A DNA stretch of 64,000 bases from Candidatus Omnitrophica bacterium UBA6215 (lineage in GTDB: Bacteria; Omnitrophota; Gorgyraeia; Pluralincolimonadales; Pluralincolimonadaceae). The notes under the pieces were generated by a model. It was not told the origin of the DNA, ran no database searches, and saw only the letters and a program-made list of their open reading frames with translations. Made by a program: the position numbers and the translations under genes. Location: positions 78,092-142,091 of the forward strand of contig DISH01000005.1 of the NCBI GenBank assembly GCA_002421665.1. The letters are read 5' to 3'. Shown piece after piece: positions 6,841 through 59,738 of the stretch. The stretch's first letter is position 1, and each line of letters begins with the position of its first letter.

Positions 6841-7770
6841 ATGGGAAGAGTGTTGACAGTGCTGGTAGCTGTATTGGCGTTGTCATCGGTATGCTTCGCG
6901 GATGATGCCGTTAACGGCCATAAGATAGCCGTTGACGATAAGTCCGTACGCGACTGGAAGGGTACGGCGCCGGAACAGGAGAATACGTTCGTTGTAAGCG
7001 AAGGTGAGTACATCTGGAAGGATGCTTCCGGGGACGACACCGGCAACGGCAAGTATGTTTATCCGGAGAACAAGGCGCTCAAGAAGGGTGCCGATTTGAA
7101 AGAGTTCAGGGTAACTTTCGACAACGATAACCTGTATATGCTGTTCAAGACAGACAGGCCCGGAGATTGGTGGGTCCCGTACAGGATAGTCGGCATCGAT
7201 ACAGACGGAGCTTCCGGAGGCAAGGGCGGTACGGAAGTCCTGGCCCAGGGAGACATGGATGATTACAGCTTTGATTCTGGAACGTTCGCCGAACTCAAAG
7301 TTGCCCCGGAACTGGCCTGCGAATACGTAGTGGCCGTATCTTCCACCTACAAGGGCAGGATATGGGATGCCAAGGGTAAGTTGATTGCCCGCAAAGAAGC
7401 CCAACCGGACGATACTCCCGGTTTTAAGGTCGGTGACTACAACTGGAACGCCGTTGAAGTTGCTATTCCGTGGGAGCTCATCGGAGGTAAACCGGCCGAA
7501 GGCACCGCTTGGAGGCTGGTTGTAGCTACCGGTCAGCAGGATAACGACCTGGCGCGTGAAGTAGAAGAAGAAGTAAGCGAATACCGCGCCGGCGGCGGAG
7601 AGTCGAGCGAGGACAACGGTGTCGACCCGGATGTCTTTGACCTGGCGGGCGCCGACAAGGCTACCCAGGAGAAAGAACTTGCAAGCTATAAGGCTGACGG
7701 TGAGCCTGGCGACGCCAACAGCTTCGCCGTTATAAGTAAGTCGTTCCTGACTGTGAAATTCGGCAAGTAA
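6841..7770 (+). CDS. Secreted protein, paralog B of the same domain family
   Basis: Signal peptide MGRVLTVLVAVLALSSVCFA and the same conserved blocks. Nucleotides 7156-7375 are identical (about 220 bp) to 6181-6400 of paralog A. Confidence 0.85.
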   Translation: MGRVLTVLVAVLALSSVCFADDAVNGHKIAVDDKSVRDWKGTAPEQENTFVVSEGEYIWKDASGDDTGNGKYVYPENKALKKGADLKEFRVTFDNDNLYMLFKTDRPGDWWVPYRIVGIDTDGASGGKGGTEVLAQGDMDDYSFDSGTFAELKVAPELACEYVVAVSSTYKGRIWDAKGKLIARKEAQPDDTPGFKVGDYNWNAVEVAIPWELIGGKPAEGTAWRLVVATGQQDNDLAREVEEEVSEYRAGGGESSEDNGVDPDVFDLAGADKATQEKELASYKADGEPGDANSFAVISKSFLTVKFGK

Positions 7771-15920: not shown

Positions 15921-15948
15921 TTGACAAATATATCCCATATGATATAAT
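15921..15948 (+). promoter_or_regulatory. Near-consensus sigma70 promoter TTGACA-N16-TATAAT upstream of gltB
   Basis: TTGACA at 15921-15926 and TATAAT at 15943-15948, both perfect hexamers, in the 120-nt intergenic region before gltB. Confidence 0.55.
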
Positions 15949-15981
15949 TATTACACCTAAAACGACTTAGGAATAGACGAG

Positions 15982-16025
15982 GACGTCTTCTATATATCTT
16001 TAATAATAGAAGGCGTCTTTTTTTA
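15982..16025 (+). terminator. Terminator-like hairpin plus U-tract in the gltB leader (possible attenuator)
   Basis: GACGTCTTCTAT (15982-15993) pairs with ATAGAAGGCGTC (16006-16017) as a 12-bp stem with one G-U pair, followed by TTTTTTT. It sits between the putative promoter and the gltB start at 16030/16042. Confidence 0.45.
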
Positions 16026-16029
16026 TCAG

Positions 16030-19000
16030 TTGGTTAAACAAATGAGAGAGAACGGGACCATATTAAACCATCTGCCCGAAAAACAAGGGCTCTATGATCC
16101 GCAATTCGAGCATGACAGTTGCGGCGTAGGATTCGTCTGCGATATAAAGGGCCGCAGGTCACACGGTATCGTCGAAAAGGGTGTTCTTGCGCTTGAGCAC
16201 CTGATGCACAGGGGCGCTACGGGTTCCGACCCGAAAACGGGCGACGGCGCCGGCGTTCTTATCCAGGTACCGCACGAGTTCTTCCGGAGGGAATGCCCTA
16301 AATCGGGAATATCGTTGCCCGGCGCGGGAGATTACGGGGCGGGGCTTGTTTTTCTTCCTACCGAAGGCAGGGACAGGAAATTCTGCGAAGATAATTTCAG
16401 GAAGATAGCAGAGGAAGAGGGCCTCATCTTTTTGGGCTGGCGTGATGTACCCGTCGATGATTCCATGATAGGCAAGACGGCCCGTGATGCCGAGCCGGTG
16501 ATAAAGCAGGTCTTTATCGGAAAACCTTCCTCGATAAAAGATGAACTTACATTTGAGAGGAAACTCTTTGTAGCGCGCAGGCGCGCAGAGAACCTGGTCC
16601 GGGGCTCGAAGATAGCGCAGAAAAAATATTTTTATGTAACGGGCCTTTCCTGCCGTACGGTAAGCTATAAAGGCCTTTTGATGTCCACCCAGCTCAAGGA
16701 GTATTTCCTCGACCTCAAGGACGAGAGCATCAAAAGCTCGTTTGCCCTTATCCATGCCCGTTACAGCACGAATACTTTCCCTACATGGGACCTCTCGCAG
16801 CCGTTCCGCTACCTGGCGCACAACGGCGAGATAAATACCCTGCGCGGAAATATCAACTGGATGGCCGCCAGGCAGGGCCTCTTCAAGAGCGGTATGTTCG
16901 GAAAGGATATAAAGAAGATATTCCCCGTCATCGTCCCAGGCGGCAGTGATTCGGCGATGCTGGATAATGCCCTCGAGATGCTCATTCTTAGCGGCCGCCC
17001 GTTGCACCATGTGATGATGATGCTCATCCCGGAAGCATGGCAGAGCAATAACCAGATAGATTCCCGCAGGAAGGATTTCTACGAATACCACGCCTGCCTT
17101 ATGGAGCCATGGGACGGACCCGCCGCCGTCGCGTTCACCGATGGAAGGTATATTGGCGCTACGCTTGACCGTAACGGATTGAGGCCGGCGCGTTATGTTG
17201 TGACGAAAGACGATATGGTAGTAATGGCCTCGGAAGTCGGCGTGCTTGATATTCCCGCCGAGAATATACTGGTCAACGGTCGGCTTAAACCGGGCAGGAT
17301 GTTCCTTATCGACACGGTCGAGGGGCGCATTATCGACGACAAGGAGCTCAAGGACAAGATTGCCTTTGAAAAACCCTACGGGAAGTGGCTGAAAGACAAC
17401 CTCGAGACCCTCGAGGATGTCAAGGCGCCTAAAAAAGTAAAAGCGCCCGCGATAAAGGATATATTAAGCCAGCAGAAGGCATTCGGGTACACCAAAGAAG
17501 CCCTGAAGACGATAATAAGGCCGATGGCCGAGACCGGCGCCGAACCTACCGGCTCGATGGGCGACGACACCCCGCTTGCGGTCCTTTCCGAGAAACCGAG
17601 GATATTCTACGATTATTTCAAGCAGTTGTTCGCGCAGGTCACGAACCCGCCGATAGACCCTATCCGCGAGGAACTCGTGATGACCCTTGATACTTACCTC
17701 GGGCGCGAGAAGAATATTTTGGAAGAGACCCCGGACCACTGCCACAGGCTCAAGGTCGGTAATCCCGTGCTCACCGACGAAGAGCTCGCAAGGATAAAGC
17801 ATATAAAGAACAGGACTTTCAGGACGAAAGTGATATCCACCTTGTTCGAGGTAAAGAAGGGCAAGACAGGGTTCAGGAAATCGCTCGACAGGATACGCAG
17901 GGAATCTTCGGCCGCGATAAAGGCCGGATACAGTTTCATTATATTGAGCGACAGGGGAGTAGATGGAAAACGCGCAGCGCTTCCCGCGCTTTTGGCCTGC
18001 GCTTCGGTGCACCATCACCTTATTCGCGAGGCGACGCGCACCCAGGCGAGCATAATCCTCGAGAGCGGAGAGCCGAGGGAAGTGGCGAATTTCGCGCTCC
18101 TGTTTGGTTACGGGGCCGATTGCGTAAATCCATACCTGGCGTACAGGTCTATAGAAGAGCTGATAAAGTCCGGTGAACTCGACAAGGATTTCAGGACCGC
18201 GCAAAAAAATTACATACACGCCCTGACGCACGGGATAATGAAGATACTCTCGAAGATGGGCATTTCGACGATACAAAGCTACCGCGGCGCGCAGATATTC
18301 GAAGCGCTGGGCCTGAACGGCGAGATAATAGACGAATGCTTTACCGGCACGGTATCGAGGATAGGCGGCGTGGGCCTTGATGTCATAGCGCAGGAGACCA
18401 TAGCCAGGCACGACGACGCTTTCCCGTCGCGGCCAGGCAGGGAGCCGCAGCTCGACAACGGCGGCCTTTACCAGTGGCGCCGCGACGGAGAGTTCCACCT
18501 TTGGAACCCCGAATCGATAGCCGCCCTGCAGGATTCCGTCCGCAATAATGATTTTGAAGCCTTCAAGAGGTTCAGCGGTCTCATCAATAACCAGGAAAAC
18601 CACCTTTGCACTTTACGCGGCCTCCTGAAATTCAAGGAGACGCAGGCTATACCCATAGGGGAGGTTGAGCCCGCCTCCGAGATAGTAAAGCGTTTCGTGA
18701 CGGGTGCCATGAGCTTCGGCTCCATCAGCAAGGAAGCCCACGAGGCGATGGCCACCGCGATGAACCGCATGGGCGCCAAGTCCAATTCCGGAGAGGGCGG
18801 CGAAGACCCTATGAGGTTTATCCCGCTTCCCAACGGCGACAGTTTGCGCTCTGCCACTAAGCAGGTGGCCTCCGGCAGGTTCGGTGTCACGAGCAACTAT
18901 CTTGCCAATGCCGACGAACTCCAGATAAAGATAGCCCAGGGTGCCAAGCCGGGCGAAGGCGGCCAGCTTCCAGGGCACAAGGTAAGCGTTACGATCGCGA

Positions 19001-20592
19001 AGGTCCGCCACTCCACGCCGGGGGTGACCCTTATCTCGCCGCCTCCGCACCATGACATTTATTCGATAGAGGACCTGGCGCAGCTCATATTCGACCTAAA
19101 GAACGCGAATCCACGCGCGAGGGTAAGTGTAAAGCTCGTCTCCGAGATAGGCGTTGGTACCATAGCCGCCGGTGTAGCTAAAGGCCATGCCGATATGATA
19201 CTCATCTCGGGCGGAGACGGCGGCACGGGCGCCTCGCCCATAAGTTCGATTAAGCACGCCGGTCTTCCGTGGGAACTCGGCATATCCGAGACGCACCAGA
19301 CGCTCGTCCTTAACGATCTAAGGAGCCGTGTCAGGCTGCAGACCGACGGGCAGATGAGGACGGGCCGAGATATCGTCATAGCGGCTATCCTCGGCGCCGA
19401 GGAGTTCGGGTTCGCTACGGCCGCGCTGGTAGTCCTCGGATGTATGATGCTCAGGCATTGCAACCTGAATAATTGCTCGGTCGGTGTAGCTACCCAGGAT
19501 GAGATATTAAGGAAGAGGTTCAGCGGCAAAGCGGAATACCTGCAGTCGTATTTCACGTTCGTGGCGGAAGAGGCGCGCGCCATAATGGCGCAGCTTGGCG
19601 TCAAGGGCATAGACGAGCTTGTCGGCCGCACCGAATTGCTCGAGCCGAACAAGGCGATACTTAATTGGAAAGCGAAGGGCGTAGATTTTTCGAATATCCT
19701 TTATAAGCCGGAGGCCGGGGAGGGCGTCGGTACGCGCTGCCTAATGAAGCAGGACCACGGCATAGATAAGATCCTTGACCTGAAATTGATCGAAGCGGCG
19801 AAACCCGCGCTTGACAACAGGGAAAAAGTCTCCGCCGAACTGGCGATAAATAACACCGACAGGACCACAGGGGCGATGCTAAGCGGCGAACTCTCAAAGC
19901 GCTACGGCGAGGACGGCCTGCCGGATGATGCTATTCGTTTCAAGTTCAGCGGAACCGCAGGCCAGAGCTTCGGCGCGTTCCTGGCCAGGGGTATAACTTT
20001 CGAGATAGAGGGGCAGTCGAACGATTATGTCGGAAAGGGCCTCTCGGGAGGAAAGATCATCGTCTATCCGTCGAAGAAGGCGCGGTTCGATCCTTCGGAG
20101 AATATAATAATCGGTAATACCACTTTCTACGGTGCCACGTCGGGCGAGGCATATATCCGCGGCGCGGCCGGTGAGAGGTTTTGCATCCGCAATTCCGGCA
20201 TCCTGGCCGTTGTCGAGGGTGTCGGCGACCACGGTTGCGAATACATGACAGGCGGGCGCGTGGTCATCATCGGAAGGACCGGGCGCAACTTCGCCGCGGG
20301 CATGTCGGGCGGTATCGCTTATGTTTACGACGAGGACAAAAAATTCAAGTCTCGCTGCAACATGGGAATGGTGGAGTTCGACGCCCTTGACGATGACGAC
20401 AGGTTCGCCATCCGCGCGCTCCTGAAGAACCATGTCCAGTATACAGGAAGCGCCAAGGCGAAGAAGATACTGGATAGCATAGAGAGTGAAATTAAGAGTT
20501 TCGTTAAAGTAATGCCGACCGAATACAAGAAGGTCCTTGCGGGCGGTATAGTCAAGAAGAAGCCTGTTTTTTCAGAGGTCAGCGATGGGTGA
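16030..20592 (+). CDS. gltB: Glutamate synthase large subunit
   Basis: N-terminal amidotransferase Cys1 motif [11 protein letters not shown], then FMN/TIM-barrel and C-terminal GXGXG domains. 1520 aa. The real start may be the ATG at 16042. Confidence 0.95.
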
Positions 20593-22021
20593 CGTAAAGG
20601 GTTTCCTGAAGATCAAACGCGGCCATTCGGATTACCGTCCGGTCTCCGAGAGGGTCAAGGACTATAAAGAAGTTGCCGTCCTGCGCCCGGAGGCTAAGTC
20701 CCGCGACCAGGGTTCGCGGTGCATGGACTGCGGTGTCCCGTTCTGCCATTGGGGCTGCCCGTTAGGCAATTACGTCCCCGAATGGAACGACCTCGTCTAT
20801 CGCGGGCATTGGAAGAAGGCTATGGAGTCCCTTTCATCGACGAACAACCTGCCTGAAGTTACCGGCAGGATATGTCCGGCTATCTGCGAATTTGCCTGCG
20901 TCCTCGGCTATAACGACGATCCCGTCACCATACGCGAGAATGAACTGGATATCATCGAACACGCTTTCAAAAAAGGCTGGATAAAGGCCAACCCTCCGAA
21001 AAAACGCACCGGCAAGAAGGTGGCTGTCATAGGCTCGGGCCCGTCGGGCCTCGCCTGCGCCGCACAACTCAACAAGGCCGGGCACAAGGTGACCGTCTTC
21101 GAGCGCGACGAGAAGGCCGGCGGTATTATGCGCTTCGGCATACCGGATTTCAAACTGGACAAGTCGGTCCTCGACAGGCGCATCAAGATATGGAAGAAAG
21201 AGGGTATAATCTTCAAGACCTCTACCGAAGCGGGCGCCGATTACAAGGCCTCGCGGCTAAAGAAAGATTTTGACGCCATAGTCCTCGCGGGCGGAAGCCG
21301 CGTCCCGCGCGACTTGACCATACCGGGCCGCGAATTGGGCGGGATACATTTCGCCATGGATTACCTCATGCAGTCCAACAGGAGGGTTTCCGGCAAGAAG
21401 ATAGGTCTTAGCGAGCTGATAGACGCGAAGAACAAGAAGGTCGTCGTCATCGGCGGCGGCGATACCGGCTCGGACTGCGTGGGCACGGCCCACAGGCAGG
21501 GCGCCTCAAGTGTGACACAGATAGAACTTCTCCCCCAGCCTCCGGAATGCCGCACGAAAGCTTTTCCCTGGCCGAAATATCCCATGCTCCTTAAGACTAC
21601 GACGAGCCATGAGGAAGGCGGGGCGCGCTATTGGTCGGTCTCGACCAAGAGGTTCGAGGGCGCGGGAGGCAAGTTAAAGAAACTTATCTGCGTCAAGGTT
21701 GAGCTGGGCCGCGACGACAAAGGGTGCATGCTTATCAAAGATGTCCCCGGAAGCGAGTTCGAGATAGAGGCCGACCTGGTCGTGCTGGCTCTCGGGTTTC
21801 TCCACCCCGAAAAAGGGCTCCTTGGCCAACTGGGTATCGAGCTTGATGCCCGCGGCAACGTCAAGACAGGCGCGGACAACGCCACATCCGTAAGGAAGAT
21901 CTTTGCCGCCGGCGATATGAGAAGAGGCCAATCGCTGATCGTCTGGGCCGTCTCCGAAGGCCGCCGCGCCGCCCACTTTGTCGATAAATTCCTCATGGGC
22001 TCCACCCGACTGCCGCTTTAA
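20585..22021 (+). CDS. gltD: Glutamate synthase small subunit (NADPH-dependent)
   Basis: Fe-S cysteine cluster [10 protein letters not shown]...CP, FAD/NAD Rossmann motif [17 protein letters not shown] and second dinucleotide motif [13 protein letters not shown]. Overlaps the gltB stop. Confidence 0.95.
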
Positions 22022-45717: not shown

Positions 45718-45782
45718 GCCGTTACAATTTGCTTTACTTTATGTTATGCGTATGTTAAATTAATTCTTTAAATGAGGATTTT

Positions 45783-51876: not shown

Positions 51877-52683
51877 ATGGACACAATAGGTCTGATCGCA
51901 GGTAAGAGTGATTTTCCGCTTATTTTTGCCCGCGCGGCTAAGGCCAAGGGTTACAGCGTTGTGGCGGTAGGTATAGAGGGTGAGACGAAGCCCGAAGTTG
52001 AAGCCCTTGCCGATAATTTCCGTTGGGTAAGCCTGGGAGAACTTTCGAAAGTTCTCGATTTTTTCAAGGCGGAGGGCATAAAGAAGGCTGTTATGGCCGG
52101 GGGTATAACCAAGTCCAGGATATTCAACGAGGCCCTTAAAATAGACGGATTGATGAAATCTATCTTGGTAAAGGCCCTCGACAGGAAGGACGATACCCTC
52201 CTCTCCATGATAACATCTACGTTGAGGTCTTCCGGGGTCGAACTGCTCGATTCAACCCTTTTCTTGGAAGATTTGCTTCCGGCAGCGGGCTTGTTGACCT
52301 CCGTCAGACCTTCCCCGTCCCAGGAGGACGACATAAGGTTCGGCATTCCAATAGCCAAAGAGATCGCCGGGATGGATATAGGCCTTTCAGTGTTTATCAA
52401 GGACAAGGCCGTTATAGCAGTCGAGGATATCGAAGGCACCGATGCCATGATAAGGCGCGGCGGAAGACTTGCCGGTCCGGGAGGAACGGTCGTGAAAGTC
52501 GCGCGGCCTAAGCAGAGCATGAAGTTCGACCTGCCCGTGATAGGCCCGCAGACTATAGCCTCGATGGCGGAAGCGAAAGCCGGTTGTATTGCCATAGAAG
52601 CAAAGAAGACCCTGATCATAGACAAGGAGGAGACCGTGCGGCTTGCCGATGGAAAAGGCGTCGCCGTAACGGCCATAAAATAA
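51877..52683 (+). CDS. lpxI: UDP-2,3-diacylglucosamine hydrolase LpxI (DUF1009 family)
   Basis: IGLIAGKSDFPLIFARAAKAKGYSVVAVGIEGETKPEVEALAD is the LpxI-type N-terminus. Position directly after lpxA matches the known synteny. Confidence 0.65.
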   Translation: MDTIGLIAGKSDFPLIFARAAKAKGYSVVAVGIEGETKPEVEALADNFRWVSLGELSKVLDFFKAEGIKKAVMAGGITKSRIFNEALKIDGLMKSILVKALDRKDDTLLSMITSTLRSSGVELLDSTLFLEDLLPAAGLLTSVRPSPSQEDDIRFGIPIAKEIAGMDIGLSVFIKDKAVIAVEDIEGTDAMIRRGGRLAGPGGTVVKVARPKQSMKFDLPVIGPQTIASMAEAKAGCIAIEAKKTLIIDKEETVRLADGKGVAVTAIK

Positions 52684-52684
52684 A

Positions 52685-53368
52685 ATGAGCGGTATACTGC
52701 TCTTGGGCTCGGAAGATGAAGGCCTTAAACGCGCCAGGAAGGCGCTTAAGGAATCGGATTACCGGGTGCATTTCTCGGATGAGACCATTGACGTAAAAAC
52801 AGCATACGAGGAAGCCCTCAGCCGCCGTCCGGACGTGATCATCCTGGATTTCACCTCACCGAAAGTGTTTGACGCCCAATCAGCTTATCGCGCCTTTAAG
52901 AAAGACAGATTCCTTAAGGAGACGCTCCTTTTTGCCGTCCTGCCTGCTGACGGCATCCAGGTCCTCGATAATATACCCGCTATAGGAGATTTTATATTTG
53001 AGCCTTTTAATCCTTCCGAGCTGGTTACGAGGGTGAAGGTGCTTCTCAAGAAGGCCATACCTACCGATTCGGAAGACATGATAAAGGCCGGGGATCTTAT
53101 AATAGACGTATCCAGGTATGAGGTGACCCTGAGCGGGAGCAAGCTTGAATTGACCTTCAAGGAGTATGAGCTCCTTAAGTTCCTTGCCTCCAACAAGGGC
53201 CGCGTATATTCCCGCGACCAGCTCCTGGACAAGATCTGGGGCTATGACTATTACGGCGGGACCAGGACGGTAGATGTACATATCCGCCGTTTGCGCAGCA
53301 AGATAGAGGACCGAAGGCACGCCTTCATAGAGACAGTCCGCAATATCGGCTACAAATTCATCGCATAA
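52685..53368 (+). CDS. Orphan OmpR/PhoB-family response regulator with degenerate receiver domain (GlnR-like candidate)
   Basis: C-terminal winged-helix trans_reg_C region LTFKEYELLKFLASNKGRVYSRDQLLDKIWGYDYYGGTRTVDVHIRRLRSKIE. The receiver keeps an Asp in IILDF, but the conserved Thr/Ser and Lys positions appear substituted (FAVLPA and EPFNPSEL in place of KPF). No kinase gene is adjacent. Confidence 0.8.
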   Translation: MSGILLLGSEDEGLKRARKALKESDYRVHFSDETIDVKTAYEEALSRRPDVIILDFTSPKVFDAQSAYRAFKKDRFLKETLLFAVLPADGIQVLDNIPAIGDFIFEPFNPSELVTRVKVLLKKAIPTDSEDMIKAGDLIIDVSRYEVTLSGSKLELTFKEYELLKFLASNKGRVYSRDQLLDKIWGYDYYGGTRTVDVHIRRLRSKIEDRRHAFIETVRNIGYKFIA

Positions 53369-53400
53369 TCCCTTCCCGTATCCTTCCTGAAATTAATCGA

Positions 53401-53445
53401 GATTTAACCTGCGCGTAACACAGATTTAACATCCATCCGTATACT
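53401..53445 (+). promoter_or_regulatory. Triple direct-repeat operator GATTTAAC-n6-GTAAC-n6-GATTTAAC followed by TATACT -10 box (putative OmpR-family activator site)
   Basis: Three xTAAC half-sites at 11-bp periodicity (53401-53430), with TATACT at 53440-53445. The same arrangement recurs at 58160-58205 upstream of glnA. Confidence 0.5.
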
Positions 53446-53478
53446 CTTTTGTGTAAACAATAGAAACGGGAGTCGCTT

Positions 53479-53652
53479 GTGAAAGGGAAAGAGCCAGCAA
53501 GTAAGTACCGGTGCGCTAAGTGTGGATACATCACACAACGTACGGCGCCCCCTAAGAACTGCCCGATATGCAGGGCCGGTTCGGAAACGTTTGACGACAT
53601 CGGAGTCGATAGGTCATCGAAGATCAAGGCGATCTATAAAACCCGAAGTTGA
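53479..53652 (+). CDS. Small zinc-ribbon protein (57 aa; CxxC...CxxC), hypothetical
   Basis: GTG start with GGGAG SD. Translates to VKGKEPASKYRCAKCGYITQRTAPPKNCPICRAGSETFDDIGVDRSSKIKAIYKTRS. Below the ORF-track cutoff. First ORF downstream of the repeat operator. Confidence 0.45.
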   Translation: MKGKEPASKYRCAKCGYITQRTAPPKNCPICRAGSETFDDIGVDRSSKIKAIYKTRS

Positions 53653-53678
53653 TTTTACGTTAAAAAGGAGGCAGTAAA

Positions 53679-54458
53679 ATGAAAAAGCTGGCGAGTTTGT
53701 TAGTTTTAGTTTCATTATTGTGGGTTCCTTCCCTGGTTTTCGCAACAGCCACCACGCATATCTGGGCCCCATCAACCGATGTCCAGGCTTACGGTGTCAT
53801 GCATATAACCGGTGATATGTACCTTCCTACCGGAAGGGATTCAGCCGGTAACAGGCCGTCAACGGTCACCAACGAAGGCCTTACGGTCGGCGTCCTGCCG
53901 TTCGAGAAGTTCAATATCGAGGCCGGTTTTGACCACAAGACCGGTTTTGGCGACCTGGATGATTATCCCATGTATTTCAACGCTAAAGGCGGGATCCCGG
54001 AAGGCGCTTTCGGTGAATATTTCCCAGCTTTGGCCGTGGGCGCCTATGATATCGGCACAAAGAAGAACGCCACGAACTATAACATAGTTTACGGCAAAGC
54101 GGCCAAGACGTTCAAGGCGGGTGATTTTGACCTTGGAAGAGTATCCGCCGGTTATTTTTACGGGAACGACAAACTGCTTCTTGACCAGAACGGCAATAAG
54201 GACAACGACGGTTTCTTCGGCGCTTGGGAAAGAACGATGTCGGAGATATCTGACAAGCTCTGGCTTTGTGTTGAGTACCAGGGGACCAAGAGCGCTTACG
54301 GATGCTGGAACTTCGGCGGTTCGTGGAAATTTTCCGACAATGTCTCAATGCTCGTCGGTTTCGACCGTTACAACAACAGGAACCTTGCCGATACGGTTAC
54401 GGTCCAGTTCGATATAGACTTCGACGTATTCAGCAAAATGTTCAAGAACAATAAGTAG
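53679..54458 (+). CDS. Secreted/outer-membrane porin-like protein, hypothetical
   Basis: Strong SD and signal peptide MKKLASLLVLVSLLWVPSLVFA. Aromatic-rich alternating strands suggest a beta-barrel. Sits immediately upstream of amt. Confidence 0.45.
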   Translation: MKKLASLLVLVSLLWVPSLVFATATTHIWAPSTDVQAYGVMHITGDMYLPTGRDSAGNRPSTVTNEGLTVGVLPFEKFNIEAGFDHKTGFGDLDDYPMYFNAKGGIPEGAFGEYFPALAVGAYDIGTKKNATNYNIVYGKAAKTFKAGDFDLGRVSAGYFYGNDKLLLDQNGNKDNDGFFGAWERTMSEISDKLWLCVEYQGTKSAYGCWNFGGSWKFSDNVSMLVGFDRYNNRNLADTVTVQFDIDFDVFSKMFKNNK

Positions 54459-54467
54459 AGGTGACCC

Positions 54468-55835
54468 ATGTTTAAAAAACTAGCGTTAATACTCGCGGTA
54501 TTCGCGATAACAGTCGGGACTTCGTGTCTGGCGTTTGCCCAGGACCCGAGCGGCGCCGAGACCCTTGCACAAAACCCGAATTCACCGGTCGATTACGTGT
54601 GGGTCCTTGTATGCGGATTCCTCGTCTTCTTTATGCAGGCAGGATTCGCGATGGTTGAAGCCGGGTTTTGCAGGGCCAAGAACGCGACAAACCTAATGGC
54701 GAAGAATACGATAGACTTTACTTTGGCTTCGCTCATCTTCATGGCTTTCGGGTTCGCGTTCATGATGGGTAATGATTACAACGGCATAATAGGTACTTCC
54801 GGATGGTTTCTCCACGGCGATAACTATGATGTAGGCCGTTACCTCATGTTCTTCTGGCAGCTGGTATTTGCCGGGACGGCGGCGACGATAGTCTCGGGTG
54901 CTGTAGCCGAAAGGCTCAAGTTCAAGGCCTATTTCCTTTACAGTATCCTGGTAACCGCCCTTATATATCCGTTGTATGGACACTGGGTATGGGGCGGCGG
55001 ATGGCTTTCTAAACTGCCCTTCGGAGTCGGCCACGTTGATTTTGCCGGTTCCGGAGTCGTTCACACTATCGGCGGCTTCGTCGGTCTCGCCGGTGCGATA
55101 GTCCTGGGGCCGCGCTTCGGGAAGTTCGATAAGAACAGGAAGCCGAAGGCCATACCGGGCCACAGCATTACTCTTGCGGCGCTTGGTACCTTTATCCTCT
55201 GGTTCGGATGGTTCGGGTTCAATCCCGGATCCACGTTTTCCGCCCATCAGTTGAGGATAGCGGTGATCGCGGTCAATACCAACCTTGCCGCTGCCGCAGG
55301 TGCAGCTGTCGCCTTGTTGCTTGTCTTCATGAAGACGAAGAAGTGGGATGTAGGCATGATGCTTAACGGTTGCCTGGCCGGCCTCGTGGCCATTACCGCG
55401 CCGTGCGCGTGGGTAGAGGCGTGGGCAGCTGTTGTTATAGGCGCCATAGCCGGTGCATTGGTGGTTGTTGGCGTCTATTTCTGGGAAAACCGCGGCATCG
55501 ATGATCCTGTCGGTGCTGTAAGTGTCCACGGCATAAACGGTGTGTGGGGCCTTATAAGCGTCGGTCTTTTTGCCGACGGCACCTATGGCTTAGGCTCAAC
55601 TTCCGAACCCTTCGTTAAAGGACTGTTCTACGGAGGCGGTTCCGGGCAGTTGATCGCTCAGCTCATAGGCGCTGCTGTGTGCGTTTCGTGGGCGTTCATA
55701 CTCGGTTTTGCAGGTTTCAAGTTAATGGATAAGATGTTCGGTATAAGGGTTTCCCCGCACGAAGAGCTCAAGGGTCTGGACATCCCGGAGCACGGGACTC
55801 CCGCTTATCCTAATTTCTATACGTACAGTAATTAA
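54468..55835 (+). CDS. amtB: Ammonium transporter (Amt family)
   Basis: Signal peptide, 11 TM segments, and Amt signatures DFAGSGVVHTIGG and GFNPGS. Confidence 0.95.
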   Translation: MFKKLALILAVFAITVGTSCLAFAQDPSGAETLAQNPNSPVDYVWVLVCGFLVFFMQAGFAMVEAGFCRAKNATNLMAKNTIDFTLASLIFMAFGFAFMMGNDYNGIIGTSGWFLHGDNYDVGRYLMFFWQLVFAGTAATIVSGAVAERLKFKAYFLYSILVTALIYPLYGHWVWGGGWLSKLPFGVGHVDFAGSGVVHTIGGFVGLAGAIVLGPRFGKFDKNRKPKAIPGHSITLAALGTFILWFGWFGFNPGSTFSAHQLRIAVIAVNTNLAAAAGAAVALLLVFMKTKKWDVGMMLNGCLAGLVAITAPCAWVEAWAAVVIGAIAGALVVVGVYFWENRGIDDPVGAVSVHGINGVWGLISVGLFADGTYGLGSTSEPFVKGLFYGGGSGQLIAQLIGAAVCVSWAFILGFAGFKLMDKMFGIRVSPHEELKGLDIPEHGTPAYPNFYTYSN

Positions 55836-55843
55836 AGAGGGCC

Positions 55844-56188
55844 GTGAAAATGAAAAAAATAGAAGCGGTTGTTCGAGTCGAGAAGCTTGAGGAGATCACC
55901 GAGGCCCTGGATAAGTTCGGCTATCCCGGAATGATGATAACGCACATTGAAGGGCATGGCCGCCAGAAGGGGCTCTCGGAGCAGTTCAGGGGAAGGGAGT
56001 ATAAGGTGAATTTCCTTCCGAAGATCAAGATCGAGATCGTCGTAAAGGATGGCGATGTCGAGAAATTGGTAAAGGCCATATCGGGCATAGCCAGGACCGG
56101 CGAGATAGGAGACGGGAAGATATTCATATACCCCGTCGAAGATACTATCAGGATACGCACCGGAGAGAAAGGCGAGGGCGCGATTTAG
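55844..56188 (+). CDS. glnK: Nitrogen regulatory protein P-II
   Basis: MKKIEAVVRVEKLEEITEALDKFGYPGMMITHIEGHGRQKG ... T-loop RGREYKV. Confidence 0.9.
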   Translation: MKMKKIEAVVRVEKLEEITEALDKFGYPGMMITHIEGHGRQKGLSEQFRGREYKVNFLPKIKIEIVVKDGDVEKLVKAISGIARTGEIGDGKIFIYPVEDTIRIRTGEKGEGAI

Positions 56189-56191
56189 GCC

Positions 56192-56371
56192 ATGTTCGAC
56201 AAGGAACTGATAGAGAAGATACGCAGGCTGAAGGAAGACAAGGGCTATACTCTCTATGATCTGGCGAAAAGGGTCGACATTCAGCCGTCGACCCTGGAGC
56301 GCTGGTTCAAGACCAACCGCATAAACAAGGTGTACGCGGGCGTTGTAAAAGAGAGGCTGGGCATAAAATAA
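56192..56371 (+). CDS. Small HTH protein (59 aa), hypothetical
   Basis: MFDKELIEKIRRLKEDKGYTLYDLAKRVDIQPSTLERWFKTNRINKVYAGVVKERLGIK contains a helix-turn-helix. Lies between glnK and the second amt gene. Below the ORF-track cutoff. Confidence 0.4.
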   Translation: MFDKELIEKIRRLKEDKGYTLYDLAKRVDIQPSTLERWFKTNRINKVYAGVVKERLGIK

Positions 56372-56433
56372 TTTTTTGTGCCCGATTTATGTCAGTTGGA
56401 TACACAATTGAGGCAAAAGGAAAGGAGAGGTAA

Positions 56434-57792
56434 ATGGCGAAAGTCTTGAAAAGTCCGCCGTTCTGGTTCTTTGCGGTATTCCTGCTTTTTACTGTGATAG
56501 CAACGGTCGTTGCGGCAGAGGAGGTCGCGCCTTCCGCGGCGGCGCCCTCAGAATTAGCCCAGGTTGATACAGGGGATACCGCATGGTTGCTGACTTCGGC
56601 AGCCCTTGTCCTGGTCATGACGCCGGCACTGGCTTTTTTCTACGGAGGGCTTGTCCGCAGGAAGAACATCCTGTCCATACTGATGCAGTGTTTCATGCTC
56701 ATGTGCATAATAACCATACAATGGGTGCTGTTCGGGTATTCGCTTTCATTTGGTCCGGATATCAAGGGGATTATAGGAGGATTGGGGTGGTTTGGCCTTA
56801 AGAACGTCGGCCTTGAGCCCAACCCGGTTTACGCCGCTACGGTCCCTCACCAGGCGTTCATGATATTCCAGGCTATGTTCGCTATCATAACCCCGGCCCT
56901 TATCCTGGGCGCTTTTGCCGAAAGGATGAAATTCTCGACCTTCTGCGTATTTTCCGTATTGTGGGCTACGATAGTCTATGATCCGGTCTGCCATTGGGTA
57001 TGGGGGGCGGGAGGATTCCTCAGGGCCGACGGAGCGCTCGATTTCGCCGGAGGCACCGTTGTGCATATTAACGCCGGTATAGCCGCGCTTGCCAGCGCGC
57101 TGGTGCTGGGCAAAAGGCAGGGCTATCCGCACAAGATATCGCCTCCGCATAACCTTCCTTTTGCCGTTCTGGGTGCGGGGTTGCTCTGGTTCGGATGGTT
57201 CGGTTTTAACGGAGGCAGTGCCCTTGGTTCGGGTGCCTTGGCAACGAATGCTTTTGTGGTCACGCATATTGCCGCCGCGGCAGCCGGACTTACGTGGGCC
57301 ATGCTTGACTGGATATTCAATTCCCGGTCCACCGTTTTGGGCATAATAACCGGAGCGGTTGGCGGCCTGGTAGCCATAACCCCCGCATCGGGTTTCGTGA
57401 ATCCGATAGGCGCTATCTGGATAGGGATAGGTGTCTCGGTGCTTTGCTACATATCTGTTGCAGTCCTGAAAGTGAAATTCGGCTACGACGATTCACTAGA
57501 TGCATTTGGCGTCCATGGAGTGGGAGGAATATGGGGAGCGCTTGCGACGGGGCTTTGGGCCACGAAGGCGGTCAATCCCGCCGGAGCGGACGGCCTTTTC
57601 TACGGGAATCCCGCCCAGTTCTTTATACAGTTCAAAGCGGTTATAATTACGGCTGCCTATTCGTTCGTTGTGACATTTGTCCTGCTCAAGATATTGGATG
57701 CGATCATGGGTTTGCGCGCCAGCGAACAGGATGAGAAGATAGGTCTTGATTTGACCCAGCACCGTGAAGCCGGTTACACGGTACTAGATTAA
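56434..57792 (+). CDS. amt: Ammonium transporter (second Amt paralog)
   Basis: DFAGGTVVHINAG and GFNGGS signatures; 452 aa. Confidence 0.95.
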   Translation: MAKVLKSPPFWFFAVFLLFTVIATVVAAEEVAPSAAAPSELAQVDTGDTAWLLTSAALVLVMTPALAFFYGGLVRRKNILSILMQCFMLMCIITIQWVLFGYSLSFGPDIKGIIGGLGWFGLKNVGLEPNPVYAATVPHQAFMIFQAMFAIITPALILGAFAERMKFSTFCVFSVLWATIVYDPVCHWVWGAGGFLRADGALDFAGGTVVHINAGIAALASALVLGKRQGYPHKISPPHNLPFAVLGAGLLWFGWFGFNGGSALGSGALATNAFVVTHIAAAAAGLTWAMLDWIFNSRSTVLGIITGAVGGLVAITPASGFVNPIGAIWIGIGVSVLCYISVAVLKVKFGYDDSLDAFGVHGVGGIWGALATGLWATKAVNPAGADGLFYGNPAQFFIQFKAVIITAAYSFVVTFVLLKILDAIMGLRASEQDEKIGLDLTQHREAGYTVLD

Positions 57793-57798
57793 GGAGGA

Positions 57799-58146
57799 AT
57801 GATAATGAAATATTTAATTGCCATTGTACAGCCTGACCGGCTCGATGAAGTGCTCACCAGGCTCGAAGAGAAGGAGATACATCTTGTGACCGTCACTCCG
57901 GTCATGGGACGCGGCCGCCAGAAGGGTATTTCGGAGGTCTACAGGAGCCATAAAGAGGCAGGCAGCCTTCTTAAGAAGGCAAAACTTGAGATCGCCGTCA
58001 ACGACGATTTCGTTAAGCCTGCCATAGACGCGATACTGGAAGGCGCCCGCACAGGACATGTCGGAGACGGAAAGATATTTGTCCTGGATATGCCCGAATG
58101 CATAAGGATAAGGACGGGCGAGAAAGGCTGTCCGGCAATAGGATAA
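57799..58146 (+). CDS. P-II family nitrogen regulatory protein (second, divergent copy)
   Basis: KYLIAIVQPDRLDEVLTRLEEKEIHLVTVTPVMGRGRQKG shows the PII fold. Immediately downstream of amt. Confidence 0.85.
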   Translation: MIMKYLIAIVQPDRLDEVLTRLEEKEIHLVTVTPVMGRGRQKGISEVYRSHKEAGSLLKKAKLEIAVNDDFVKPAIDAILEGARTGHVGDGKIFVLDMPECIRIRTGEKGCPAIG

Positions 58147-58159
58147 AACCGCCCCCGGA

Positions 58160-58205
58160 GATTTAACATTCCCGTAATATGGATTTAACAATAGGGTTGT
58201 ATACT
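58160..58205 (+). promoter_or_regulatory. Second copy of the triple direct-repeat operator GATTTAAC-n6-GTAAT-n6-GATTTAAC plus TATACT, upstream of glnA
   Basis: GATTTAAC at 58160-58167 and 58182-58189 with GTAAT in between, then TATACT at 58200-58205. Identical architecture and spacing (within 1 nt) to the site at 53401. Confidence 0.5.
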
Positions 58206-58235
58206 TTTTCCACAAAATAAAAGGAGGAAGCCAGC

Positions 58236-59738
58236 ATGGCAAAGAAGAAGGAAGTAAAGGAAGTCAAGACAGCCAATCCGTTGGCGAACGGCTCGTTCAA
58301 TGAGAAAGCCGCCCGCGACGTGATAAAGTTGATCAAGGAAAAAGACATCAAGATGGTCGACCTGAAGTTCAACGACCTTCCCGGTCTTTGGCAGCATTTT
58401 ACTATACCCGCCTCAGAGATAAAGGAGATGGACGATATCACCCACTCCATATGGGTCGATGGTATAGGTTTCGACGGTTCCTCGATACGCGGTTTCCAGA
58501 AGATACAGGAATCCGACATGATCCTTATCCCGGACCCGACGAGCGCGGTGGTAGATCCCGTCTGCGAAGTACCGACGGTCAGCATACTTTGTGATATTTA
58601 TGACCCGCTTACGCGCAAGCCGTATTCGCGCGACCCGCGTTATATAGCGAGGAAAGCGGAGAAGTACCTCAAGGATACCGGAATAGCCGACAGTATCTAT
58701 TTTGGGCCGGAAGCCGAATTCTTCCTTTTTAACGACGTGCGTTTCGACCAGAACGAGAATTCAGGCTATTATTTCGTGGATTCCAACGAAGGTGACTGGA
58801 ATACCGGACGCAAGGAAGAACCGAACCTTGGATACAAGATCCGTTACAAGGAAGGATACTTCCCGGTCCCGCCGCATGACACCCTGCAGGACCTGAGGAG
58901 CAGGATGATACTCAAGATGAAGGAAGCCGGTGTCAACATCGAGGTCCATCATCATGAGGTTGCGACTGCCGGCCAGTGCGAGATCGACATAAAGTTCGAT
59001 AAGCTCACCAAGATGGCCGACAGCCTGCTTATGTATAAGTACATAATCAAAAACATGGCCAGAAAGGCCGGCATGGTGGCTACTTTCATGCCTAAACCGC
59101 TCTTTGCCGATAACGGTTCCGGTATGCACTGCCATCAGAGCTTATGGAAGAACGGCGTTAATCTGTTCTATGACAAGAACGGCTACGCGCTCCTGAGCCA
59201 GACCGCCAAGTATTACATCGGCGGGTTGCTCAAGCACGCGAACAGCCTTATGGCATTCTGCGCCCCGACCACAAACTCTTATAAGAGGCTTGTCCCGGGC
59301 TACGAAGCGCCTGTTAACCTTGTATATTCCGCCCGTAACCGTTCTGCCGCAGTACGTATCCCCATGTACAGCGACAGCCCGAAATCCAAGAGGATCGAGT
59401 TCAGGCCTCCGGACCCGTCATGTAACGGCTATATCGCGTTCGCTGCCATGCTCATGGCCGGTTTGGACGGTATCCAGAACAAGATCGATCCGGGCAAGCC
59501 TACCGACAAGGACCTCTTTGAGTTGGGAGAGGAAGAGATGTCCAAGATACCGACCGTCCCGTCATCGCTGCGCCGTTCCATTGATGCGCTTGAGGCGGAC
59601 CACGATTATCTGCTCAAGGGCGGTGTCTTTACCAAGGATGTGATAGACATCTGGATCGAATACAAGAGGAAGAAGGAGATAGACGCCGTCAGGATGCGTC
59701 CGCATCCCTACGAGTTCTACCTTTACTTCGATATCTGA
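58236..59738 (+). CDS. glnA: Glutamine synthetase type I
   Basis: Beta-grasp N-terminal domain ([14 protein letters not shown]) and catalytic domain motifs ([31 protein letters not shown]). Confidence 0.95.

What the first reader, a model, noticed from the sequence alone, without database searches (positions are those of the whole stretch)
53401..58205. Conserved triple direct-repeat operator shared by two nitrogen-assimilation promoters (GlnR/PhoB-like box)
Upstream of the Zn-ribbon/porin/amt/glnK operon (53401-53445) and again upstream of glnA (58160-58205), the same architecture occurs: GATTTAAC, 6 nt, GTAAC or GTAAT, 6 nt, GATTTAAC, then 9-10 nt, then TATACT. That is three xTAAC half-sites phased at 11 bp abutting a -10 hexamer with no recognisable -35 box. 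This is the classic layout of class-II activation by an OmpR/PhoB-family winged-helix regulator (pho boxes). The a-n6-b-n6-a geometry is also strikingly like the GlnR boxes (gTnAc-n6-GaAAc) that control amtB and glnA in actinobacteria. The gene content here points to a Gram-negative diderm, so this would be an undescribed nitrogen-control regulon of the GlnR type outside the Actinobacteria.
Basis: partly seen in the sequence, partly recalled or inferred. Interest (0 to 1): 0.85.

Follow-up and report, generated by a model that had tools for sequence, protein, structure and literature searches.

The report
GlnR-type nitrogen operator in Omnitrophota
Two promoters for ammonium uptake and glutamine synthesis in an uncultured Omnitrophota bacterium carry the same phased (G/T)TAAC repeats, and the gene next door encodes a close relative of the actinobacterial nitrogen regulator GlnR, so this control system, thought specific to actinobacteria, probably also runs in Omnitrophota and Chloroflexota.

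Summary
TTAAC-n6-GTAA(C/T)-n6-TTAAC, then 9-10 nt, then TATACT occurs exactly twice in 64 kb (0.15 expected). One copy lies upstream of the Zn-ribbon/OM-protein/amt/glnK operon and one upstream of glnA. Neither promoter has a -35 box, although other promoters in the window do.

The adjacent orphan regulator (52685-53368) is an OmpR-family protein with a pseudo-receiver. Its best solved relatives are actinobacterial GlnR (8HML/8HIG/8HIH). All four base-contacting and all eleven phosphate-contacting GlnR residues are identical. The published GlnR half-site is GTAAC or t/gTAAC, spaced by 6 nt.

The geometry matches the GlnR-RNAP cryo-EM complex: sites at about -60/-49/-38/-27, with the proximal site downstream of -35.

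The boxes are conserved at both promoters in at least 10 Omnitrophota species genomes, while the flanks diverge. Chloroflexota-type homologues (40-60% identical) are followed by GTAAC-n6-TTAAC-n6-GTAAT-n6-G(A/T)AAC-n10-(-10) and then amt-glnK-glnA (52 arrays observed, 1 expected).

I found no paper describing this outside actinobacteria, and databases label these proteins PhoP or generic response regulators.

This is a new member of a known kind in new phyla. Binding, activation and the nitrogen signal are untested.

The parts
52685..53368 (+). GlnR-like orphan OmpR-family regulator (227 aa): pseudo-receiver plus winged-helix DBD; its start lies 1 nt after the lpxI stop
   Evidence: Pfam Trans_reg_C 101 bits with no significant Response_reg hit. 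Best PDB relatives are GlnR 8HML/8HIG/8HIH. GlnR_1st (PF21695) scores 13.9 bits here and 27.5 bits in the 80%-identical orthologue P0003, against a cut-off of 27. The AF2 model shows a (beta-alpha)5 domain plus wHTH, mean pLDDT 80.
53393..53397 (+). Site 1, distal (fourth) half-site TTAAT, about -59..-55
   Evidence: In phase, 11 bp before the next site. Conserved in L004, L005, L019, L101 and L123 but replaced by AATGA in L001/L003.
53404..53408 (+). Site 1 half-site TTAAC, about -48..-44
   Evidence: Conserved in all 12 distinct Omnitrophota amt-operon promoters.
53415..53419 (+). Site 1 half-site GTAAC, about -37..-33 (takes the place of a -35 box)
53426..53430 (+). Site 1 proximal half-site TTAAC, about -26..-22 (downstream of the -35 position)
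   Evidence: The position matches the b2 site of the GlnR-TAC.
53440..53445 (+). Predicted -10 hexamer TATACT of the amt-operon promoter (TSS predicted near 53452)
   Evidence: It was not part of any search pattern, yet it is invariant at a fixed 9-nt distance in 12 of 12 orthologous promoters.
53479..53652 (+). First gene of the operon: 57-aa rubredoxin-like Zn-ribbon protein
   Evidence: Pfam RUBY_RBDX. Syntenic in all orthologous loci.
53679..54458 (+). 259-aa secreted protein with no family match (putative outer-membrane channel)
   Evidence: No Pfam or NCBIfam hit. A signal peptide is visible in the translation. 77-97% identity in orthologous operons.
54468..56188 (+). amt (54468-55835) and glnK (55844-56188), first pair
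   Evidence: Pfam Ammonium_transp and P-II.
56192..56371 (+). 59-aa HTH protein followed by a terminator-like hairpin at 56358-56384
   Evidence: Weak HTH_26/HTH_3 hits, terminator scan, conserved in orthologues.
56434..58146 (+). amt (56434-57792) and glnK (57799-58146), second pair
   Evidence: Pfam.
58163..58167 (+). Site 2 half-site TTAAC, about -49..-45
   Evidence: Conserved in 11 distinct Omnitrophota glnA promoters.
58174..58178 (+). Site 2 half-site GTAAT, about -38..-34
58185..58189 (+). Site 2 proximal half-site TTAAC, about -27..-23
58200..58205 (+). Predicted -10 hexamer TATACT of the glnA promoter (TSS predicted near 58212)
   Evidence: TA(T/C)ACT lies at a fixed 10-nt distance in 11 of 11 orthologous promoters.
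58236..59738 (+). glnA, type I glutamine synthetase (500 aa)
   Evidence: Pfam Gln-synt_N/C. NCBIfam TIGR00653 681 bits.

Best explanation
The two repeat arrays are operators for the regulator encoded at 52685-53368, a GlnR-type regulator: an orphan OmpR/PhoB-family protein with a pseudo-receiver domain. Three protomers (at glnA) or four (at the amt operon) bind head-to-tail to (G/T)TAA(C/T) half-sites spaced 11 bp apart. The sites are centred at about -57, -46, -35 and -24. The proximal protomer sits between the -35 position and the -10 hexamer TATACT. The bound array replaces the missing -35 contact and recruits sigma-70 RNA polymerase, as in the Mycobacterium tuberculosis GlnR transcription-activation complex. 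This switches on ammonium uptake (Zn-ribbon/OM-protein/amt/glnK/amt/glnK) and glutamine synthetase when nitrogen is scarce. Shown here: the sequence architecture, its conservation, the homology of the regulator, and the identity of its DNA-contact residues. Inferred: binding, the direction of regulation (activation), the position of the TSS, and the nature of the nitrogen signal, which is also unknown for actinobacterial GlnR.
For: (1) The motif is exact, occurs only twice in the window and sits at two nitrogen-assimilation promoters.
(2) There is no -35 box at these promoters, while gltB, nadE and bamA in the same window have one.
(3) The regulator's DBD scores 122 bits against S. erythraea GlnR, compared with 90 for RegX3, 86 for VicR and 70 for PhoB. 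A profile of 27 family members gives the same ranking.
(4) GlnR base contacts R186, V190, R193 and R194 and all 11 phosphate contacts listed in PMC10235972 are identical in the alignment.
(5) Published GlnR sites fit: GTAAC; t/gTAAC-n6-Gc/aAAC in M. smegmatis, usually on the coding strand, with A4 irreplaceable; three of four sites suffice.
(6) In the GlnR-TAC the scaffold spans -64 to +13 and the b2 site lies downstream of -35. The geometry here is the same.
(7) All four Omnitrophota loci found through the protein alone that have an adjacent amt operon keep the box. Both of those with glnA in range keep the glnA box. At least 10 GTDB species genomes carry it, and only at these two promoters. 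The flanks diverge and the -10 is invariant.
(8) A Dehalococcoidales MAG has gltS genes, a regulator 47% identical, then GTAAC-n6-TTAAC-n6-GTAAT-n6-GTAAC-n10-TATCCT, then amt-glnK-glnA.
(9) Of 78 metagenomic homologue loci, 23 have such an array within 400 bp after the regulator gene and 15 of these are followed by amt or glnA. In total there are 52 arrays against 1.0 in shuffles.
(10) The receiver is degenerate: the Asp is kept, DD becomes SE, Thr becomes a hydrophobic residue and Lys becomes Glu. No histidine kinase is found anywhere in the 64-kb window. Orthologues reach the Pfam GlnR_1st threshold.
(11) A neighbour-joining tree of DBDs places Sae/Mtb GlnR as sister to the Omnitrophota plus Chloroflexota clade.
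Against: There is no binding, footprint, TSS or expression data, so everything is comparative. The window protein itself is below the Pfam GlnR_1st cut-off (13.9 against 27 bits), and its N-terminal half aligns only weakly with GlnR. The DBD tree has few outgroups and no support values. Most Omnitrophota box instances were found with a pattern that forces the half-sites, which is an ascertainment bias; only L001-L005 and the metagenome set are independent. More distant Omnitrophota orthologues (60-66% identical; L006-L008) also follow lpxI but have no boxes or amt genes nearby, so the conserved linkage of the regulator is to the lpx operon rather than to amt. Only 23 of 78 homologue loci show an array. 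A proximal site between -35 and -10 could also act by repression. In actinobacteria other OmpR-family proteins (PhoP, MtrA) bind at or near GlnR boxes, so a second regulator cannot be excluded.
Confidence: 0.75

Rival explanations
1. The boxes are real operators, but another OmpR/PhoB-family regulator encoded elsewhere binds them, or also binds them. For example a PhoP/MtrA-like protein could cross-regulate nitrogen genes, and the neighbouring regulator would then serve the lpx operon it is co-transcribed with.
For: TTAACA-type direct repeats at 11-bp phasing also resemble PhoP boxes of Bacillus (own knowledge, not tested). In Streptomyces, PhoP and MtrA bind at or beside GlnR boxes (reference list and text of PMC10704036). 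The regulator gene is always fused to lpxI, even where amt is not adjacent. Databases label it PhoP.
Against: The DBD and its DNA-contact residues are of GlnR type. The order regulator gene, then array, then amt/glnA recurs in unrelated Chloroflexota-type contigs that have no lpx genes. The protein has neither a canonical receiver nor a partner kinase. No pst or pho genes are nearby.
Confidence: 0.1
2. The neighbouring GlnR-like protein does bind the boxes, but it acts as a repressor. It would occlude the spacer and -35 region when nitrogen is plentiful, rather than act as an activator.
For: The proximal half-site lies between -35 and -10, a classic position for repression. Actinobacterial GlnR represses some targets (agl3 operon).
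Against: The promoters lack any -35 element, so they should be weak without help. Spacing to the -10 is fixed at 9-10 nt across phyla. The same geometry in the solved GlnR-TAC is an activation complex. amtB and glnA are activated targets in actinobacteria.
Confidence: 0.1
3. The repeats are not a protein operator. They would be chance similarity, a duplicated promoter fragment, or part of a transcribed RNA leader or riboswitch.
For: The two sites share GATTTAAC twice each, which a local duplication could in principle produce.
Against: Expected frequency is 0.15 per window. The spacers between half-sites differ between the two sites and between species, while the half-sites and the -10 stay fixed. 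The same half-site array with different spacers appears in another phylum. No Rfam family matches. The array lies upstream of the conserved -10, so it is not transcribed.
Confidence: 0.03

Closest known systems
Actinobacterial GlnR (OmpR/PhoB-family orphan regulator) and its GlnR boxes (S. coelicolor, M. smegmatis/M. tuberculosis, A. mediterranei, S. erythraea; PDB 8HML, 8HIG, 8HIH)
   Same: Winged-helix DBD 55-59% identical, with all listed DNA contacts identical. Pseudo-receiver that keeps the Asp but lacks the phospho-transfer quintet, and no partner kinase. The 5-nt half-site is (G/T)TAAC, spaced by 6 nt, in head-to-tail arrays of three to four sites on the coding strand. The proximal site lies downstream of -35. 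The targets are amt-glnK and glnA.
   Different: The host is a diderm of Omnitrophota, with relatives in Chloroflexota, rather than an actinobacterium. The N-terminal domain is strongly diverged (13.9 bits to Pfam GlnR_1st). TTAAC is the commonest half-site, and the GaAAC b-site is seen only in the Chloroflexota-type loci. The gene is the last cistron of the bamA-ompH-lpxD-lpxC/fabZ-lpxA-lpxI operon. gltBD in this window is not a target.
PhoB / PhoP pho boxes (E. coli PhoB; B. subtilis PhoP TT(A/T/C)ACA repeats)
   Same: Same protein superfamily. Direct repeats with 11-bp periodicity replace the -35 box, and sigma region 4 is contacted (mentions 3T72). TTAACA-like repeat units (own knowledge).
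   Different: There is a canonical phosphorylatable receiver with a cognate kinase PhoR, and the targets are phosphate genes. The array ends at the -35 position rather than downstream of it. The DBD of the window protein scores 70 bits to PhoB against 122 to GlnR.
Other bacterial nitrogen regulators: NtrC/sigma-54, cyanobacterial NtcA (GTA-n8-TAC), Bacillus TnrA/GlnR (MerR family), AmtR (TetR family), NrpR
   Same: They control the same target genes (amt, glnK, glnA).
   Different: The protein families and operator types are unrelated. There is no sigma-54 -24/-12 element and no NtcA palindrome at either promoter. An NrpR-like gene does sit beside the GlnR-like clusters of Dehalococcoidales-type loci, but none was found among the annotated ORFs of the window.

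Membership tests
GlnR (actinobacterial OmpR-type nitrogen regulator) | C-terminal OmpR/PhoB winged-helix DBD closest to GlnR, with the GlnR DNA-contact residues (R186, V190, R193, R194 and 11 phosphate contacts, Sae numbering) | tested here: met
   PF00486 101 bits. 8HML scores 122 bits against 90 for the next family. The profile search gives the same ranking. All 15 contact residues are identical. DBD identity is 59% to Sae and 55% to Mtb.
GlnR (actinobacterial OmpR-type nitrogen regulator) | Atypical, unphosphorylated receiver: Asp retained, the rest of the phospho-pocket not conserved (Pfam GlnR_1st, PF21695) | tested here: inconclusive
   The pseudo-receiver character is met: D55 is kept, DD becomes SE, Thr becomes a hydrophobic residue and Lys becomes Glu, and the domain has a receiver fold. 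The GlnR_1st score is 13.9 bits against a cut-off of 27 for the window protein, while orthologue P0003 scores 27.5 and P0133 27.3.
GlnR (actinobacterial OmpR-type nitrogen regulator) | Orphan: no cognate histidine kinase gene nearby | tested here: met
   No HisKA/HATPase protein is found among the annotated ORFs of the 64-kb window. The neighbours are lpxI and a Zn-ribbon gene.
GlnR (actinobacterial OmpR-type nitrogen regulator) | GlnR boxes: 5-nt (g/t)TnAC / GaAAC sites separated by 6 nt, two to six sites, upstream of amtB-glnK and glnA | tested here: met
   The sequence is present at both promoters and conserved. Consensus taken. Physical binding was not tested.
GlnR (actinobacterial OmpR-type nitrogen regulator) | Activation geometry: protomers from about -60 to about -22, with the proximal one downstream of the -35 position | tested here: inconclusive
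   The geometry fits if TATACT is the -10, given the 9-10 nt gap conserved across phyla and the comparison. The TSS is not mapped.
GlnR (actinobacterial OmpR-type nitrogen regulator) | Specific DNA binding and nitrogen-limitation-dependent activation | not testable with these tools
   This needs EMSA or footprinting, a reporter assay, or transcriptomics.
GlnR (actinobacterial OmpR-type nitrogen regulator) | Occurrence in Actinomycetota, as the family is described in the literature | tested here: not met
   The host is Candidatus Omnitrophota and the relatives are in Chloroflexota/Dehalococcoidia. This is the novelty, and it is not a functional criterion.
PhoB/PhoP phosphate regulators (pho box) | Canonical receiver (DD-D-T-K), adjacent phoR kinase, phosphate-regulon targets | tested here: not met
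   Response_reg E = 0.086. T and K are lost. There is no kinase in the window. The targets are amt and glnA. NCBIfam PhoB scores 136 bits against a cut-off of 296.
NtrC / sigma-54 nitrogen promoters | A -24/-12 element (TGGCAC-n5-TTGC) and an upstream enhancer | tested here: not met
   There is no match within either intergenic region.
NtcA (CRP family) operators | GTA-n8-TAC palindrome centred near -41.5 | tested here: not met
   None of the 12 matches in the window lies in 53369-53478 or 58147-58235.

The most novel reading that the evidence does not exclude
GlnR-type control is not an actinobacterial speciality. On this reading it is an old, cross-phylum system shared by Actinomycetota, Chloroflexota (Dehalococcoidia and others) and a clade of Omnitrophota. 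The half-site is the same, the 4-site/11-bp array is the same, and so is the unusual architecture with a protomer downstream of -35. It would then be the first predicted nitrogen regulator for two large, mostly uncultured phyla. The long-sought input signal of the orphan pseudo-receiver could be sought by comparing three phyla. In Omnitrophota the regulator is additionally hard-wired as the last gene of the lipid A (lpx) operon, which may couple envelope synthesis to nitrogen status.
Probability: 0.5. Interest if true: 0.65.

Novelty: new member of a known kind. Interest (0 to 1): 0.55.

Why it matters
The nitrogen regulators of Omnitrophota and Dehalococcoidia are unknown. Annotation pipelines call these proteins PhoP or a generic response regulator. 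If the prediction holds, a well-studied actinobacterial regulator, with crystal and cryo-EM structures of its DNA and RNAP complexes, becomes a ready-made model for nitrogen control in uncultured diderm and Chloroflexota lineages. The regulon can then be read directly from metagenomes with a simple phased-half-site search. The GlnR activation mode, described as unique, would be shown to be ancient or horizontally mobile. Cross-phylum conservation in the pseudo-receiver could narrow down how GlnR senses nitrogen, which is still an open question in actinobacteria ('unknown nitrogen signal(s)').

Tried and rejected
(1) A 2-mismatch hit at 45732-45758 (- strand), between dnaB and bamA, looked like possible autoregulation of the operon that carries the regulator. 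Alignment with five orthologous regions shows that the conserved bases are the bamA promoter (-35 CTTTAC, extended -10 TGTTAAAT) read backwards, and the middle half-site is not conserved. Rejected.

(2) There are no boxes at gltBD (canonical promoter), at nadE-glnA2 or upstream of the second amt. With up to 3 mismatches nothing else in the window stands out (5 hits against 8.6 expected).

(3) Sigma-54 and NtcA-type elements are absent at both promoters.

(4) Rfam finds nothing in the region.

(5) The strict-motif scan of 185,579 species genomes gave 114 loci. About 70 would be expected by chance for 17 specified bases (my estimate). All Omnitrophota hits fall at the two known promoters, so no further regulon members were found this way. 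Most hits outside Omnitrophota are not near nitrogen genes. The exception is L071, which has four half-sites upstream of amt-glnK.

(6) The Foldseek search of the AF2 model returns the whole OmpR family without singling out GlnR. It confirms the fold but says nothing about subfamily.

(7) More distant Omnitrophota orthologues (L006-L008) have no boxes within reach.

(8) Five literature searches for an OmpR-type GlnR in Chloroflexi or Omnitrophota, or for nitrogen-assimilation genes in Omnitrophota, found nothing relevant. The library does not cover most subscription journals.

Full report
OBSERVATION. Site 1 reads GATTTAAC(53401-53408)-CTGCGC-GTAAC(53415-53419)-ACA-GATTTAAC(53423-53430)-9 nt-TATACT(53440-53445). 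Site 2 reads GATTTAAC(58160-58167)-ATTCCC-GTAAT(58174-58178)-ATG-GATTTAAC(58182-58189)-10 nt-TATACT(58200-58205). Each site therefore has three xTAAY half-sites with 11-bp phasing. Allowing up to 2 mismatches, the pattern occurs only at these two places in the 64 kb, both exact, against 0.15 expected. All four GATTTAAC octamers in the window lie in these sites. Neither promoter has a -35 box. The gltB, nadE and bamA promoters of the same window have normal -35/-10 pairs.

CONTEXT. The window comes from a Candidatus Omnitrophota genome; P0001 is 99% identical to the regulator. The gene order is dnaB, bamA, ompH, lpxD, lpxC-fabZ, lpxA, lpxI, regulator (52685-53368), [site 1], Zn-ribbon, 259-aa secreted protein, amt, glnK, small HTH, amt, glnK, [site 2], glnA (500 aa), DUF5684 (- strand), nadE, second glnA. 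gltBD lies at 16030-22021. No histidine kinase was found among the annotated ORFs of the window.

THE REGULATOR. Pfam finds only the OmpR-type winged helix. The N-terminal half folds as a (beta-alpha)5 receiver in an AF2 model, with pLDDT 85-90 over most of the domain. It aligns only weakly with canonical receivers and lacks most of the catalytic quintet: DD becomes SE, the Asp is kept, Thr becomes a hydrophobic residue and Lys becomes Glu.

The best solved relatives are actinobacterial GlnR. For the DBD alone, 8HML (S. erythraea GlnR DBD-DNA) scores 122 bits, 8HIH (M. tuberculosis GlnR in the transcription-activation complex) 115, RegX3 90, VicR 86 and PhoB 70. A profile of 27 family members ranks them the same way. 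The paper that describes these structures (PMC10235972) lists the residues that read the DNA: R186, V190, R193 and R194 contact bases, and eleven others contact phosphates. In the alignment all fifteen are identical in the window protein.

Pfam has a model for the GlnR N-terminal domain (PF21695, GlnR_1st). The window protein scores below its threshold (13.9 bits). Its 80%-identical orthologue P0003 and Dehalococcoidia relatives reach it, at 27.3-27.5 bits against a cut-off of 27. A small neighbour-joining tree of DBDs puts Sae/Mtb GlnR as sister to the Omnitrophota plus Chloroflexota clade. That tree has few outgroups and no support values.

THE OPERATOR COMPARED WITH GlnR BOXES. The published consensus is GTAAC for both a and b sites, gTnAc-n6-GaAAc in S. 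coelicolor, and t/gTAAC-n6-Gc/aAAC in M. smegmatis. Sites are usually on the coding strand, the A at position 4 is irreplaceable, and a 5-nt box is the basic unit. Typical promoters have four sites separated by six bases, of which three are essential.

In the cryo-EM complex the amtB scaffold runs from -64 to +13. Four protomers bind head-to-tail, and the proximal one binds 'downstream of the -35 element', touching the beta flap and sigma region 4. With TATACT as the -10 hexamer, the half-sites here fall at about -59/-48/-37/-26 for site 1 and -49/-38/-27 for site 2. This is the same geometry.

CONSERVATION. Loci found through the protein, and therefore independently of the motif, are the fairest test. 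L001 and L003 (79% identical regulators) keep both boxes. L004 and L005 (70-76%) keep a four-site box upstream of the Zn-ribbon/amt operon. The sequence upstream of the boxes is unrelated between species.

A scan of 185,579 species genomes with TTAAY-n6-GTAAY-n3-GATTTAAC found the motif in at least 10 Omnitrophota species genomes, always at one of these two promoters. In 12 distinct amt-operon promoters and 11 distinct glnA promoters the -10 hexamer was not part of the search pattern. It is nevertheless invariant or nearly so, at a fixed 9-nt or 10-nt distance (information 2.0 and 1.86 bits). The upstream flank carries 0.33 and 0.83 bits. The half-site scores in that set are inflated by ascertainment, because the search pattern forces them.

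BEYOND OMNITROPHOTA. The next tier of homologues (40-60% identity, also without a Response_reg hit) is from Chloroflexota/Dehalococcoidia. In a Dehalococcoidales MAG the order is gltS genes, regulator, GTAAC-n6-TTAAC-n6-GTAAT-n6-GTAAC-n10-TATCCT, amt, glnK, glnA.

I fetched 80 metagenomic loci with the family profile. Of 78 with enough downstream sequence, 23 have a high-scoring phased array within 400 bp after the regulator gene, and 15 of these are followed by amt or glnA on the same strand. Several others end before a gene could be seen. In total there are 52 arrays against 1.0 in shuffles. The typical form is GTAAC-n6-TTAAC-n6-GTAAT-n6-G(A/T)AAC-n10-TAnnnT. Its proximal GAAAC is the actinobacterial b-site.

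MECHANISM PROPOSED. GlnR-like dimers, held by the pseudo-receiver, occupy three to four head-to-tail sites. They substitute for the absent -35 contact and recruit RNA polymerase to transcribe the ammonium-uptake operon and glnA under nitrogen limitation. The steps shown are the architecture, its conservation, the homology and the contact residues. The steps inferred are binding, activation rather than repression, the TSS and the signal. I put this at 0.75.

The rivals are three. Another OmpR-family protein may bind the boxes (0.1), since PhoP and MtrA do this in Streptomyces and the regulator's most conserved linkage in Omnitrophota is to lpxI rather than to amt. The protein may act by repression through occlusion (0.1). 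The repeats may be chance, a duplication or an RNA element (0.03).

KNOWN OR NEW. Functionally and by homology this is a GlnR system. Literature searches found no description of an OmpR-type GlnR in Chloroflexi or Omnitrophota. Reviews treat it as actinobacterial. Databases name these proteins PhoP or a generic response regulator. I therefore rate it a new member of a known kind, in new phyla including a diderm, with moderate interest (0.55).

LIMITS. There are no experiments and no mapped TSS. Only one contig of the genome is available, so regulon size is unknown. The literature library lacks most subscription journals. The phylogeny is minimal.

Noticed in passing
window 15923-16030: gltB has a canonical TTGACA-n17-TATAAT promoter (15923-15950). 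It is followed by a leader that folds into a long hairpin ending in a U-run (-25.3 kcal/mol, z = -5.7). This looks like an intrinsic terminator or attenuator in front of gltBD. No Rfam family matches it.
   Followed up: partly
window 51877-53368; L001, L003-L008: In every Omnitrophota locus examined the GlnR-like gene is the last cistron of the bamA-ompH-lpxD-lpxC/fabZ-lpxA-lpxI cluster. It overlaps lpxI by 4 bp or, as in the window, starts 1 nt after the lpxI stop. This holds even in lineages where amt is not adjacent; in L006 an Rrf2 gene and a Nar/Nxr-like molybdopterin complex follow. The reason for coupling a nitrogen regulator to lipid A genes is unexplained.
   Followed up: partly
L009 11982-12977; L137 5895-6899: NrpR-like genes (PF08461 + PF01995 in L009; a homologous 334-aa ORF in L137) sit beside the GlnR-like/amt/glnK/glnA clusters of Dehalococcoidales-type contigs. 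These organisms may therefore combine two nitrogen regulators.
   Followed up: no
L019 (- strand, near 7189) and L101 near 2798: In two Omnitrophota genomes a second array lies between the Zn-ribbon gene and the secreted-protein gene: TTAAC-n6-TTAAT-n6-TTAAT-n6-GTAAY-n9-TATACT. This is an extra internal promoter of the same type.
   Followed up: no
L167 near 9360; L175 near 393: An array GTTACyCCGATTTAACyC...GTGA...GTAAC-n10-TAnnnT precedes a short ORF that encodes only a winged-helix DBD with no receiver, downstream of the GlnR-like gene. It may be a truncated paralogue under the same control.
   Followed up: no
L011, L087, L098 (Ignavibacteria); L033, L093, L097, L107, L109, L111, L116, L117 and L017, L043, L048, L079 (Clostridia); L012 (Nitrospirales); L034, L044, L118: Phased TTAAC/GTAAC arrays of four or more half-sites recur in near-identical form within several other lineages. 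They are not next to amt, glnK or glnA homologues. Their regulators and targets are unknown.
   Followed up: no
L071 4950-5010: An unclassified marine MAG (ERR599008_bin.45) has TTAAC-n6-TTAAC-n6-GTAAC-n6-TTAAC(-n6-GAAAT) directly upstream of amt-glnK, with no GlnR-like gene within the 8 kb held.
   Followed up: partly
window 53679-54458: A 259-aa protein with a clear signal peptide and no family match is conserved (77-97% identity) as the second gene of the ammonium-uptake operon in all Omnitrophota orthologues. It may be an outer-membrane channel for ammonium.
   Followed up: no
window 56192-56384: A conserved 59-aa HTH protein is encoded between the two amt-glnK pairs. It is followed by a terminator-like hairpin (56358-56384). 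The second amt-glnK pair has no recognisable boxes or promoter of its own.
   Followed up: no
L016/L072 (CAZYUB010000005.1) and L058 (CAZAEH010000001.1): Two GTDB records that carry this Omnitrophota-type locus are titled 'uncultured Planctomycetia bacterium'. L058 is 97-100% identical at the protein level to the window. The label is probably a taxonomic mis-assignment.
   Followed up: no
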